Shown: in pieces, positions 40,881-43,800 of the stretch
How the letters are laid out: every line of letters begins with the position of its first letter
Numbering within the stretch: the stretch's first letter is position 1
Assembly (NCBI GenBank): GCA_009914755.4
Contig: CP068257.2
Coordinates: 20,032,001-20,096,000, forward strand
Direction of reading: 5' to 3'
Length of the DNA: 64,000 bases
Source: the human T2T-CHM13v2.0 reference genome, Homo sapiens
Notes under the pieces: model-generated
What the model was told of the DNA's origin: nothing
Database searches by the model: none
What the model saw: only the letters and a program-made list of their open reading frames with translations
Program-made: the position numbers and the translations under genes

Positions 40881-42469
40881 GTAATTTATAGATTCAATGC
40901 CATCCCCATCAAGCTACCAATGACTTTCTTCACAGAATTGGAAAAAACTACTTTAAAGTTCATATGGAACCAAAAAAGAGCCCGCATTGCCAAGACAATC
41001 CTAAGCCAAAAGAACAAAGCTGGAGGCATCATGCTACCTAACTTCAAACTATATTACAAGGCTACAGTAATCAAAATAGCATGGTACTGGTACCAAAACA
41101 GAGAAATAGACCAATGGAACAGAACAGAGCTCTCAGAAATAATACCACACATCTACAACCATCTGATCTTTGACAAACCTGACAAAAACAAGGAATGGGG
41201 AAAGAATTCCCTATTTAATAAATGGTGCTGGGAAAACTGACTAGCCATATGTAGAAAGCTGAAACTGGATCCCTTCCTTACACCTTACACAAAAATTAAT
41301 GCAAGATGGATTAAAGACTTAAATGTTAAACCTAAAACCATAAAAACCCTAGAAGAAAACCTAGGCAATACCATTCAGGACATAGGCATGGGCAAGGACT
41401 TCATGACTAAAACACCAAAAGCAATGGCAACAAAAGCCAAAATTGACAAATGGGATCTAATTAAACTAAAGAGCTTCTGCACAGCAAAAGAAACTACCAT
41501 CAGAGTGAACAGGCAACCTAAAGAATGGGAGAAAATTTTTGCAATCTACTCATCTGACAAAGGGCTAATATCCAGAATCTACAAAGAACTCAAACGAATT
41601 TACAAGAAAAAAACAAACAGCTCCATCAAAAAGTGGGCGAAGGATATGAACAAACACTTCTCAAAAGAAGACATTTATGCAGCCAACAGACACATGAAAA
41701 AATGCTCATCATCACTGGCCATCAGAGAAATGCAAATCAAAACCACAATGAGATACCATCTCACACCAGTTAGAATGGCGATCATTAAAAAGTCAGGAAA
41801 CAACAGGTGCTGGAGAGGATGTGGAGAAATAGGAACACTTTTACACTGTTGGTGGGACTGTAAACTAGTTCAACCATTGTGGAAGACAGTGTGGCGATTC
41901 CTTAAGGATCTAGAAATAGAAATACCATACGACCCAGCCATCTCATTACTGGGTATATACCCAAAGGATTATAAATCATGCTGCTATAAAGGCACATGCA
42001 CACATATGTTTACTGTGGCACTATTCACAATAGCAAAGACTTGGAACCAACCCAAATGTCCATCAATGATAGACTGGATTAAGAAAATGTGGCACATATA
42101 CACCATGGAATACTATGCAGCCATAAAAAATGATGAGTTCGTGTCCTTTGTAGGGACATGGATGAAGCTGGAAACCATCATTCTCAGCAAACTATCGCAA
42201 GAACGAAAAACCAAACACCACATGTTCTCACTCATAGGTGGGGATTGAACAATGAGAACACTTGGACACAGGAAGGGGAACATCACACACCGGGGCCTGT
42301 TGTGGGGTGGGGGGAGGGGGGAGGGAAAGCATTTGGAGATATACCTAATGCTAAATGACGAGTTAATGGGTGCAGCACACCAACATGGCACATGCATACA
42401 TACGTAACAAACCTTCACGTTGTGCACATGTACCCTAGAACTTAAAGTATAATAAAATAAAATAAAATA
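40881..42469 (+). mobile_element. L1PA (about PA3-PA5-like) 3' portion in sense orientation (ORF2 C-terminal third + 3' UTR), segment B
   Basis: Sense L1 runs from gtaatttatagattcaatgccatccccatcaagctaccaatg to ...cacatgtaccctagaacttaaagtataataaaataaaataaaat. It is contiguous in L1 coordinates with the inverted segment A, with a 19-nt overlap. Confidence 0.9.
41388..42248 (+). pseudogene. L1 ORF2 C-terminal fragment, 286 aa open, no N-terminal domains (non-functional remnant)
   Basis: The translation ...[122 protein letters not shown]... matches the canonical L1 ORF2 C-terminus. Confidence 0.85.
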
Positions 42470-43172
42470 TGTATCAAGGAATTTATCCATTTCTTCTAGA
42501 TTTTCTAGTTTATTTGCATAGAGGTGTTTATAGTATTCTCTGATGGTAGTTTGTATTTCTGTGGGATCGGTGGTGATATCCCCTTTGTCATTTTTTATTG
42601 AGTCTATTTCAATCTTTTCTCTTTTCTTCTTTATTAGTCTTGCTAACAGTCTATCAATTTTGTTGATCTTTTCAAAAAACCAGCTCCTGGATTCATTGAT
42701 TTTTTGAAGGGTTTTTTGTGTCTCTATTTCCTTCAGTTCTGCTCTGATCTTAGTTATTTCTTGCCTTTTGCTAGCTTTTGAATGTGTTTGCTCTTGCTTC
42801 TCTAGCTCTTTTTGTTGTGATGTTAGGTTGTCAATTTTAGATCTTTCCTGCTTTCTCTTGTGGGCATTTAGTGCTATAAATTTCCCTCTACACACTGCTT
42901 TAAATGTGTCCCAGAGATTCTGGTACGTTGTGTCTTTGTTCTCATTGGTTTCAAAGAACATCTTTATTTTTGCCTTCATTTCGTTATGTACCCAGTAGTC
43001 ATTCAGGAGCAGGTTGTTCAGTTTCCATGTAGTTGAGCAGTTTTGAGTGAGTTTCTTAATCCTGAGTTCTAATTTGTTTGCACTGTGGTCTGAGAGACAG
43101 TTTGTTATAATTTCTGTTCTTTTATATTTGCTGAGGAGTGCTTTACTTCCAACTATGTGGTCAATTTTGGAA
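42470..43172 (-). mobile_element. L1PA ORF2 (N-terminal third) segment in inverted orientation, segment C
   Basis: Antisense L1: ggaatttatccatttcttctagattttctagtttatttgcatagaggtg...gtcccagagattctggtacgttgtgtctttgttctcattggtttcaaagaacatc...ctatgtggtcaattttggaa. Minus ORF 42113-42979 encodes ORF2 residues [34 protein letters not shown]...[10 protein letters not shown]. Confidence 0.85.
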
Positions 43173-43800
43173 GTCAGTGTGGCAATTCCTCAGGTATCTG
43201 AAACTAGAAATACCATTTGACGCAGCCATCCCATTACTGGATATATACCCAAAGGATTATAAATCATGCTGCTATAAAGACACATGCACACATATGTTTA
43301 TTGCAGCACTATTCACAATAGTAGACTTGGAACCAACCCAAATGTCCAACAATGATAGACTGGATTAAGAAAATGTGGCACATATACACCATGGAATACT
43401 ATGCAGCCATAAAAAATTATGAGTTCGTGTCCTTTGTAGGGACATGGATGAAGCTGGAAACCATCATTCTCAGCAAACTATTGCAAGGACAAAAAACCAA
43501 ACACCGCATGTTCTCACTCATAGGTGGGAACTGAACAATGAGAATACATGGACACAGGAAGGGGAACATCACACACCGGGGACTGTTGTGGGGTAGGGGG
43601 AGGGGGGAGGGATAGCATTAGGAGATATACCTAATGCTAAATGACAAGTTAATGGGTGCAGCACACAAACATGGCACATGTATACATATGTAACAAATCT
43701 ACACATTGTGCACATGTACCCTAAAACTTAAAGTATAATAATAATAAAATAAAAAAAGAAAAAATAAACAAAATAAAATAAAATAAGAAAACAAAAACAA
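43168..43800 (+). mobile_element. L1PA 3'-terminal about 575 bp in sense orientation with A-rich tail, segment D
   Basis: Sense L1 runs from gtcagtgtggcaattcctcaggtatctgaaactagaaataccatttgacgcagccatcccattactgg to ...cctaaaacttaaagtataataataat. An A-rich tail follows at 43746-43800. Confidence 0.85.

What the first reader, a model, noticed from the sequence alone, without database searches (positions are those of the whole stretch)
42455..43800. Second 5'-inverted L1PA fragment nested in the A-rich 3' tail of the first, with a large internal gap and a candidate 15-bp TSD
Directly after the first L1 ends (…aaagtataataaaataaaataaaat), an antisense ORF2 N-terminal-third segment begins at 42470-43172 (about L1 nt 2500-3200). 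It joins at 43168-43172 through shared ttggaa to a sense 3'-terminal segment at 43168-43745 (about L1 nt 5450-6030). That leaves about 2.2 kb of L1 absent between the inverted and direct parts, far more than typical for twin priming. The string aaaataaaataaaat occurs at 42455-42469 and again at 43770-43784. This is consistent with a TSD from L1 endonuclease cutting inside the older element's A-rich tail, a known preferred target. The low complexity of this string means the match could be coincidental. An alternative is a single complex event, or recombination between inverted L1 copies.
Basis: partly seen in the sequence, partly recalled or inferred. Interest (0 to 1): 0.6.

Follow-up and report, generated by a model that had tools for sequence, protein, structure and literature searches.

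The report
Nested twin-primed L1 in L1 tail
Two ordinary, decayed primate LINE-1 copies sit back to back, the second apparently having inserted into the A-rich tail of the first; both show the well-known 5'-inversion ("twin priming") structure, and only the 2.15-kb stretch missing from the second is unusual.

Summary
Window 42468-43172 is antisense L1 ORF2 (ORF2p aa ~202-436, about L1 nt 2593-3297). It joins through a 5-bp microhomology, TGGAA (43168-43172), to a sense 3' end at 43168-43745 (from about nt 5450). About 2152 nt of L1 lie between the two arms' coordinates.

The repeat is 16 bp, AAAATAAAATAAAATA, at 42454-42469 and 43770-43785. It abuts both ends of the unit and starts at a TTTT/AT bottom-strand site.

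The upstream L1 (40369-42453) is a textbook twin-primed copy with a 21-bp junction duplication.

I used 45 L1PA copies recovered from contaminated bacterial assemblies as a reference panel. Against it, the two 3' ends differ at lineage-informative sites, so neither is a duplicate of the other. Their private divergence is the same (about 2.7% and 3.0%).

Best reading: an independent twin-primed L1PA insertion into the first element's tail. The gap arose either at integration or by a later deletion across the inversion junction.

The repeat is low-complexity, and 3 of 15 panel tails match it at 15/16, so it is supportive rather than decisive. No orthologous sequence could be obtained.

This is a known mechanism and a known kind of structure. 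Interest is low.

The parts
40357..40368 (.). Candidate left copy of the outer TSD of L1-A (AAAATGAGAAAA), preceded by TTTTT, which gives a perfect TT|AAAA endonuclease site.
   Evidence: Read directly. It matches 43821-43831 at 10/11. The support is weak: P about 0.01 against window background and 0.11 against shuffles of the purine-rich right flank.
40369..40880 (-). L1-A inverted arm: antisense ORF2 reverse-transcriptase region, about L1 nt 3954-4469.
   Evidence: The ORF at 40588-40833(-) hits Pfam RVT_1 at E=2.4e-8. The arm is 94-96% identical to panel L1PA copies. Its outer 21 nt are the exact reverse complement of 40879-40899 (pair I5).
40879..42453 (+). L1-A direct arm: ORF2p aa 820-1275 plus the 3' UTR, about nt 4449 to the end. 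It overlaps the inverted arm by a 21-bp duplication, with a 2-bp AG microhomology at the junction.
   Evidence: Matches human ORF2p 820-1275 at E=3e-291. It is 95-97% identical to panel copies. The sequence was read.
42454..42469 (+). AAAATAAAATAAAATA: the terminal (AAAAT)3 motif of L1-A, read as the left TSD copy of L1-B.
   Evidence: Exact copies found. The preceding base is T, so the nicked strand reads TTTT/AT. The last two bases, TA, also match L1 antisense sequence, giving a 2-bp 5'-junction microhomology.
42468..43172 (-). L1-B inverted arm: antisense ORF2, ORF2p aa ~202-436, about nt 2593-3297. It is an open frame with no stop codon.
   Evidence: E=3e-135. It is 96.9% identical to panel copies L031 and L028. 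Both ends were checked against panel copies.
43168..43172 (.). TGGAA microhomology at the L1-B inversion junction, shared by the two arms.
   Evidence: Panel L1 copies read CCTATTCCAAAATTGACC at the antisense arm end and CCATTGTGGAAGTCAG at the sense arm start. The window reads GTCAATTTTGGAAGTCAG.
43168..43745 (+). L1-B direct arm: ORF2p aa 1154-1275 with frameshifts, plus the 3' UTR, about nt 5450 to the end.
   Evidence: It is 92.6% identical to the L1-A 3' end and 94-95% identical to panel copies. The 3'-end alignment is.
43746..43769 (+). L1-B's own A-rich tail (AAAATAAAAAAAGAAAAAATAAAC).
   Evidence: Read directly. It is comparable to panel tails.
43770..43785 (+). AAAATAAAATAAAATA: right TSD copy of L1-B.
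   Evidence: 16/16 identical to 42454-42469.
43786..43819 (+). Inferred remainder of the L1-A tail (AGAAAACAAAAACAA) followed by 19 nt of unassigned sequence.
   Evidence: This is inference from the nested model. It has no L1 homology.
43820..43831 (.). Candidate right copy of the outer TSD of L1-A (GAAATGAGAGAA).
   Evidence: The support is weak.

Best explanation
The locus holds two separate LINE-1 (L1PA-type) retrotransposition events.

**First event.** L1-A (40369-42453 plus tail) integrated by target-primed reverse transcription with twin priming. This left a 21-bp duplication at its inversion point and a tail beginning (AAAAT)3.

**Second event.** A second L1 RNA from a different source lineage integrated into that tail, in these steps:
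1. L1 endonuclease nicked the T-rich bottom strand at TATTTTATTTTATTTT/AT.
2. Poly(A)-primed cDNA synthesis copied only the last ~580 nt, back to about nt 5450.
3. The top strand was cut 16 nt away. Its 3' end (...AAAATA) annealed through TA to an internal site near nt 3297 of the RNA.
4. That end primed a second cDNA back to about nt 2593.
5. The two cDNA 3' ends paired through TGGAA/TTCCA and were sealed.

Because the first cDNA stopped about 2152 nt short of the internal priming site, that interval is missing.

**Shown:** the segment identities, orientations, coordinates, microhomologies and the 16-bp repeat, and that the two 3' ends are not copies of one another.

**Inferred:** the order of events, the reading of the repeat as a TSD, and that the gap arose at integration rather than later.
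For: - **Anatomy and ORF2p mapping:**
- **Junction microhomologies verified against panel L1 copies:**
- **The 16-bp repeat:** it is exact, flanks the unit on both sides and occurs nowhere else in the window. It is absent from 45 panel loci.
- **Agreement with published twin-priming features:** the TSD length matches the 14-16 bp peak, and microhomology at the 5' junction and the inversion junction is typical of 5'-inverted L1 (PMC2912911).
- **L1-A as a canonical case:** its duplication is 21 bp, against a reported median of 22 bp (bioRxiv 10.1101/2024.08.27.596794).
- **Internal deletions are a recognised outcome:** 66% of 5'-inverted L1 carry one, explained as poly(dT)-primed extension failing to reach the internal primer. 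Extreme inversion-deletion variants have been described (PMC2837659).
- **Independent origin of the two elements:** the 3' ends differ at four non-CpG lineage-informative sites and share only 2 private changes, against 14 and 19 unshared.
- **Order of events:** L1-A has slightly more affinity to the older-type panel copy L005, and L1-B to L031/L028. This fits A before B.
- **Flanks:** the sequence on both sides of the composite has no L1 homology.
Against: - The repeat is low-complexity and resembles the native 3' terminus of many L1PA copies. Three of 15 panel tails match it at 15/16.
- Private divergence is 54/2032 (2.7%) for A and 37/1233 (3.0%) for B. B is therefore not measurably younger.
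- A 2152-nt internal deletion is far from the reported median of 14.5 bp.
- The outer TSD that would place L1-B inside L1-A is only weakly supported.
- No orthologous or empty-site sequence could be obtained.
Confidence: 0.55

Rival explanations
1. The nested, twin-primed insertion is the same, but with an ordinary small gap. L1-B originally had a longer inverted arm and a direct arm of about 2.7 kb. A later genomic deletion of at least 2.15 kb then removed sequence from inside the inverted arm, across the inversion junction, to nt 5450 of the direct arm. The ends rejoined at the TGGAA microhomology.
For: This model needs no coincidence of breakpoints and explains why the gap is so far from the usual 14.5-bp median. 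A 5-bp microhomology is equally typical of microhomology-mediated deletion. It leaves the TSDs intact, as observed.
Against: It needs an extra event. There is no trace of it, because no orthologue was available. Internal deletions generated at integration are a recognised class. The arm lengths of 0.58 and 0.70 kb are unremarkable for a single event.
Confidence: 0.2
2. All four segments arrived here in one retrotransposition. L1-B had inserted into the tail of L1-A's progenitor at another locus. That progenitor then read through its own poly(A) signal and terminated at L1-B's signal (3' transduction). The long RNA integrated here with twin priming. On this reading the inner 16-bp repeat is a TSD copied from the source locus.
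For: Private divergence of A and B is indistinguishable, and B's is if anything slightly higher. The only candidate TSD for L1-A lies outside the whole composite. AATAAA signals precede the right repeat copy at a suitable distance.
Against: It requires a rare source configuration plus read-through. Equal divergence is also expected if both insertions fell within a few million years of each other. L1-A's lineage states look slightly older than L1-B's, so an older-type source would have had to stay active after receiving a younger-type insert. No sibling or source locus could be searched for.
Confidence: 0.07
3. The 16-bp repeat is a coincidence of two (AAAAT)n-type L1 tails and not a TSD. L1-B's arms lie next to L1-A for another reason. 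This could be an endonuclease-independent insertion or one with a lost TSD, or an orphan antisense fragment joined to a plain 5'-truncated L1 by rearrangement.
For: (AAAAT)-like motifs are intrinsic to L1PA 3' termini. Among 15 panel tails, 3 match at 15/16 and 2 at 14/16. B's own terminus matches at 14/16 at 43741-43756.
Against: The exact 16-mer occurs in none of 45 panel loci and nowhere else in 64 kb. The left copy ends exactly where antisense L1 homology begins, and the right copy sits at the end of B's tail. The length and nick site fit TPRT. An antisense ORF2 piece lacking its own 3' end has no simple origin other than twin priming.
Confidence: 0.08
4. There was one integration event but two templates. 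The top-strand primer annealed to a different L1 RNA from the one being copied from its poly(A) tail, a trans or 'dual-priming'-like variant. The 2.15-kb 'gap' would then not be a deletion from one RNA.
For: The best panel matches differ between the arms. The inverted arm agrees with L031/L028 at 0.89 of informative sites, while the direct arm is closest to L007 (0.86), then L031 and L015 (0.81). Dual priming with two mRNAs has been proposed (PMC2837659).
Against: L031 is a near-best match for both arms, and the 3' region carries little lineage signal. Published dual priming uses the second RNA's poly(A), not an internal site. There is no positive evidence of two sources.
Confidence: 0.05
5. 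The second 3' end (43168-43745) is a segmental or tandem duplicate of L1-A's 3' end, or the structure arose by recombination between L1 copies, rather than by a second retrotransposition.
For: The two 3' ends lie in direct orientation 1286 bp apart and are 92.6% identical. They share a rare G (42141/43427) not seen in 43 panel copies. A 132-nt block has a single difference between them.
Against: They differ at four non-CpG sites where both states recur in independent genomic copies. There are 14 and 19 unshared private changes against 2 shared. Each has its own differently structured tail. Duplication does not explain the antisense arm or the flanking repeat. The low-divergence block is better read as a short gene-conversion tract laid over two independent insertions.
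Confidence: 0.02

Closest known systems
Twin-primed (5'-inverted) L1 insertions (Ostertag and Kazazian 2001; surveyed in PMC2912911, PMC5668948 and bioRxiv 10.1101/2024.08.27.596794)
   Same: It has an inverted upstream arm plus a direct 3' arm with an A-rich tail, and a flanking 16-bp direct repeat. There is microhomology at both the 5' junction (2 bp) and the inversion junction (5 bp), and an endonuclease-like nick site. About 18% of polymorphic human L1 insertions carry 5' inversions.
   Different: The interval missing between the arms is about 2152 nt, against a reported median internal deletion of 14.5 bp. The neighbouring L1-A, with its 21-bp duplication, is the typical form.
Twin-priming 'inversion-deletion' variants and dual priming (Meyer et al. 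2010, PMC2837659)
   Same: The poly(A)-primed cDNA stops early while an internally primed cDNA supplies the inverted arm, so a large part of L1 is absent between the arms.
   Different: [quoted passage not shown] Here it copies about 580 nt of L1 3' end first.
Nested retrotransposon insertions in A-rich tails of older L1 or Alu elements (the basis of interruption-based TE dating, e.g. PMC1914374)
   Same: A younger TPRT insertion uses the T-rich complement of an older element's tail as its endonuclease target, and the TSD is made of tail sequence.
   Different: Nothing of substance differs. Here both the host and the guest are 5'-inverted L1PA copies of nearly the same age.

Membership tests
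LINE-1 (primate L1PA) copy | Sequence homology to L1 ORF2 and the 3' UTR | tested here: met
   ORF2p 202-436 matches at E=3e-135 and ORF2p 820-1275 at E=3e-291. RVT_1 is hit in the L1-A inverted arm. The segments are 94-97% identical at the nucleotide level to human L1PA copies.
LINE-1 (primate L1PA) copy | 3' end with a poly(A) signal and an A-rich tail | tested here: met
   Both units end ...CTTAAAGTATAAT followed by A-rich sequence.
LINE-1 (primate L1PA) copy | Assignment to a named subfamily (L1PA2-L1PA8) by diagnostic positions | tested here: inconclusive
   No curated consensus sequences were available. Against the panel, both units sit between the L005-type (older) and L004/L041-type (younger) copies, nearest L031/L023/L028. 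A label of 'L1PA5/6-like' would rest on my memory of 3' UTR diagnostics only.
Twin-primed 5'-inverted L1 insertion (L1-B) | Two arms of opposite orientation, with the inverted arm upstream in L1 coordinates of the direct, poly(A)-bearing arm | tested here: met
   The antisense arm covers about nt 2593-3297 and the sense arm runs from about nt 5450 to the end.
Twin-primed 5'-inverted L1 insertion (L1-B) | Target-site duplication flanking the whole unit (typical length 14-16 bp) | tested here: met
   The 16/16 repeat lies at 42454-42469 and 43770-43785. The caveat is low complexity: the best panel tails match at 15/16.
Twin-primed 5'-inverted L1 insertion (L1-B) | Microhomology at the 5' junction and at the inversion junction | tested here: met
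   TA (2 bp) and TGGAA (5 bp), checked against panel L1 copies.
Twin-primed 5'-inverted L1 insertion (L1-B) | Only a small deletion or duplication between the outer end of the inverted arm and the start of the direct arm | tested here: not met
   About 2152 nt are missing, against medians of 14.5 bp for deletions and 22 bp for duplications. Internal deletion itself is a recognised outcome and only its size is atypical. L1-A meets this feature with its 21-bp duplication.
Twin-primed 5'-inverted L1 insertion (L1-B) | Both arms copied from one RNA molecule | tested here: inconclusive
   Both arms are close to panel copy L031 (0.89 and 0.81 agreement at informative sites), but their best matches differ.
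Twin-primed 5'-inverted L1 insertion (L1-B) | L1 endonuclease-type nick site (5'-TTTT/A) at the start of the TSD | tested here: met
   The bottom strand reads ...ATTTTATTTT/ATTATAC.
Nested insertion into a pre-existing element | Host element sequence continues on the far side of the guest | tested here: inconclusive
   A-rich sequence (AGAAAACAAAAACAA) follows the right repeat copy. A candidate outer TSD for L1-A lies at 43820-43831, but its support is weak, with P of 0.01-0.11.
Nested insertion into a pre-existing element | Empty-site (host-only) allele in an outgroup species or population | not testable with these tools
   No primate genomes are searchable. The locus-specific metagenome scan was empty, and three exact-ORF look-ups were empty.
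Nested insertion into a pre-existing element | Guest younger than host | tested here: inconclusive
   Private substitutions are 2.7% for the host and 3.0% for the guest, which is not different. Lineage affinity weakly favours an older host.

The most novel reading that the evidence does not exclude
The composite may not be two local insertions. One possibility is that the two arms of L1-B were reverse-transcribed from two different L1 RNAs at a single target, a trans-template form of twin priming. The other is that the whole A+B array was delivered in one step by 3' transduction from a progenitor that already carried a nested, twin-primed L1 in its tail. Either would be an uncommon, documentable variant of L1 integration, not a new mechanism.
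Probability: 0.1. Interest if true: 0.25.

Novelty: already known. Interest (0 to 1): 0.08.

Why it matters
It matters very little beyond annotation. The locus is a tidy example of two known behaviours of LINE-1. One is 5' inversion by twin priming, seen here once in canonical form and once with an outlier-sized internal gap. The other is re-use of an older element's A-rich tail as an endonuclease target. It could serve as one data point for the upper tail of internal-deletion sizes in germline twin priming. If orthologues are compared, it could also serve as a small phylogenetic marker pair. It does not open any unresolved question.

Tried and rejected
- **Orthologue or empty-site search.** A 32-nt locus-specific pattern found nothing in metagenome contigs. 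Exact look-ups of three locus-specific ORFs found nothing: the chimeric 288-aa ORF across the L1-A tail/L1-B junction, and one ORF in each flank. Viral contigs hold no L1.
- **Older L1 in the window as a reference.** The copy at about 11.9-15.3 kb is only 67-75% identical, which is too diverged for subfamily work.
- **A second metagenome scan.** I searched for copies carrying the rare GAGTTCGTG variant. It returned two uninformative loci: L046, at 86% identity, and L047, with a 101-nt overlap.
- **One old antisense L1 interrupted by later insertions.** The two antisense arms are colinear in L1 coordinates (about nt 3954-4469 to the left, 2593-3297 to the right). I rejected this because L1-A's inverted arm overlaps its own direct arm by an exact 21 bp and the composite's flanks have no L1 homology.
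- **L1-B first, L1-A inserted beside it.** I rejected this because nothing after L1-A's tail matches its left flank.
- **Duplication of L1-A's 3' end.** I rejected this on the lineage-informative differences.
- **The outer TSD for L1-A.** Unconstrained local alignment of the flanks is not significant (P=0.32). The constrained test gives P of 0.01-0.11. I therefore report it only as a candidate.
- **Ostertag and Kazazian 2001.** The paper is not held in the library. Its content is cited through later papers and from memory.
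Full report
**What is there.**

The window is primate-type DNA rich in interspersed repeats. Between 40369 and about 43800 lie two LINE-1 fragments, each with its 5' part inverted. The reverse strand of 42466-43180 is one uninterrupted 238-codon frame. 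It matches human LINE-1 ORF2p residues 202-436 at E=3e-135. The forward strand from 43168 encodes ORF2p from W1154 to the C-terminus, with frameshifts, followed by the 3' UTR and an A-rich tail.

With ORF2 starting at nt 1991 of L1.3 (my memory of that reference), the antisense arm is about nt 2593-3297. The sense arm runs from about nt 5450 to the end. The interval between the outer end of the inverted arm and the start of the direct arm is therefore about 2152 nt.

**A reference panel.**

No primate genome or curated L1 consensus is reachable with these tools. I therefore scanned bacterial and archaeal assemblies for a conserved 28-mer of the L1 ORF2 3' end. This recovered 45 contaminant contigs carrying human L1PA copies of many ages, several of them 5-7 kb long. 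They are 94-97% identical to all four arms. I used them as an empirical reference.

**Junctions.**

Panel copies read CCTATTCCAAAATTGACC at the inner end of the antisense arm and CCATTGTGGAAGTCAG at the start of the sense arm. The window reads GTCAATTTTGGAAGTCAG. The arms therefore overlap by TGGAA (43168-43172), a 5-bp microhomology.

At the outer end, panel copies read ...GACACATAC|ACT, while the window's reverse strand reads ...GATACATA|TTTTATTTT. L1 homology thus ends in TA (42468-42469), and those two bases also belong to the flanking repeat.

**The repeat.**

AAAATAAAATAAAAT occurs at 42454-42468 and 43770-43784 and nowhere else in the window. With the next A it is 16/16 identical. The left copy ends exactly where antisense L1 begins. 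The right copy follows 24 nt of L1-B's own tail. The base before the left copy is T, so the bottom strand reads TTTT/AT at the inferred nick.

[quoted passage not shown] Microhomologies at both junctions are characteristic of 5'-inverted L1 (PMC2912911).

The shuffle-based expectation of 0.01 overstates the significance. Many L1PA copies natively end in ...TAATAATAAAATAAAATAAA, and 3 of 15 panel tails match the 16-mer at 15/16, with 2 more at 14/16. The exact 16-mer is nevertheless absent from all 45 panel loci. I take the repeat as a probable TSD, not a proven one.

**The upstream element.**

L1-A has an antisense arm at 40369-40880, which hits RVT_1, and a sense arm at 40879-42453, covering ORF2p 820-1275 at E=3e-291. 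The first 21 nt of the antisense arm are the exact reverse complement of the first 21 nt of the sense arm (pair I5). That is a 21-bp duplication at the inversion point, against a reported median duplication of 22 bp. L1-A is therefore canonical twin priming.

Its left flank ends TTTTT|AAAATGAGAAAA, a perfect endonuclease site. A 10/11 match (AAATGAGAGAA) lies beyond L1-B at 43821-43831. This is only weakly significant: P=0.32 unconstrained, and P of 0.01-0.11 when the left copy is required to abut L1-A. Both outer flanks lack L1 homology.

**Are the two units independent?**

Their 3' ends are 92.6% identical, with 42 differences in 574 columns. Against columns where the panel is at least 85% uniform, L1-A has 14 private changes in the shared region and L1-B has 19. 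Only two changes are shared. One is a CpG decay. The other is a G at 42141/43427 that none of 43 panel copies has.

They also differ at four non-CpG sites (alignment columns 10, 29, 187 and 420). At these sites L1-A's states recur together in panel copies L023 and L028, and L1-B's states recur in L004, L012, L029 and others. The two 3' ends therefore descend from different source lineages. Neither is a duplicate of the other, and they were not copied from one RNA.

**Relative age.**

Private substitutions are 54/2032 (2.7%) in L1-A and 37/1233 (3.0%) in L1-B (after removing 19 columns I had wrongly included in the L1-A inverted arm). The ages cannot be told apart.

At panel-informative sites L1-A agrees best with L023, L005 and L031. 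L1-B's inverted arm agrees best with L031 and L028 (0.89), and less with the older-type L005 (0.63). This is weak support for an older L1-A source. The order A-then-B therefore rests mainly on the TSD being made of L1-A's own terminal motif.

**The gap.**

In 1,703 somatic 5'-inverted L1 insertions resolved with long reads, 66% had an internal deletion, with a median of 14.5 bp, and 17% had a duplication, with a median of 22 bp. The deletions were explained as poly(dT)-primed extension failing to reach the internal primer (bioRxiv 10.1101/2024.08.27.596794). Extreme inversion-deletion variants and a two-RNA 'dual priming' model have also been described (PMC2837659).

A 2152-nt gap is thus a size outlier within a known class. 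It could equally be a later deletion that started inside a once-longer inverted arm, crossed the inversion junction and ended at nt 5450. That model requires no coincidence of breakpoints and also fits the 5-bp microhomology. Sequence from this locus alone cannot separate the two.

**Other rivals.**

- **3' transduction.** A progenitor already carrying L1-B in its tail would deliver all four segments at once. This fits the equal divergences and the outer candidate TSD. It needs a rare source configuration and could not be tested.
- **Coincidence of two (AAAAT)n tails.** This would leave L1-B without a TSD and the antisense arm without a simple origin.
- **Segmental duplication or recombination.** The informative-site differences contradict this.

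**Verdict.**

It is an ordinary nested pair of twin-primed L1PA fragments. The mechanism and the type of structure are already known, and about 18% of polymorphic L1 insertions carry 5' inversions (PMC5668948). The only mildly unusual feature is the size of the internal gap. Interest is low.

Noticed in passing
window 42064-42195 vs 43350-43481: The 3' ends of L1-A and L1-B differ by 7.3% overall. Inside this 132-nt block they differ at a single position (P about 0.007 for random placement of the differences). The block also holds a shared G (42141/43427, GAGTTCGTG) that none of 43 panel L1 copies has. This suggests a short gene-conversion tract between the two direct-oriented neighbours.
   Followed up: partly
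window 42113-42979 (- strand): A 288-codon chimeric ORF starts in L1-B's antisense ORF2 arm and reads through the 16-bp repeat into the antisense strand of L1-A's 3' UTR and ORF2 end. The 238 ORF2 codons of the arm have no stop despite about 3% divergence. No identical protein is on record. There is no reason to think it is expressed.
   Followed up: partly
loci L001-L045 (bacterial and archaeal genome assemblies): Forty-five species-representative prokaryote assemblies (Streptomyces, Mycobacterium, Alcanivorax, Bifidobacterium and others) contain contigs that are human L1PA elements with human flanks. They are mostly low-coverage NODE contigs, which points to human DNA contamination of deposited assemblies.
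   Followed up: no
window ~11900-15300 (- strand); also 1261-1528 (+) and 34329-34410 (-): A much older L1 copy, 67-75% identical to the L1PA arms, lies in antisense orientation. It coincides with the strongly negative AT skew of 12-18 kb. Two further small old L1 3'-end fragments lie elsewhere in the window.
   Followed up: no
window ~38981-39297 and ~39950-40003: An antisense Alu with a long interrupted poly(T) leader lies at 38981-39297. About 650 bp further on there is an isolated Alu fragment of about 45-53 nt (poly(T) plus GAGATGGAGTCTCACTCTGTCGCCCAGGCTG) that stops abruptly. It matches other Alus in the window at 80-93%.
   Followed up: no
window 44439-44494: A 17-bp unit (TATCCACTACCCACGTG-like) is repeated three times head to tail at 82-86% identity, in unique sequence downstream of the L1 pair (family D3).
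   Followed up: no
window 43786-43819: Between the right repeat copy and the candidate outer TSD there is 15 nt of A-rich sequence. It is followed by 19 nt (TTTATTCAACAAATAAGTG) that is neither tail-like nor L1, and its origin is unexplained. It could be a degenerate tail, untemplated or transduced sequence, or a sign that the outer TSD candidate is wrong.
   Followed up: no
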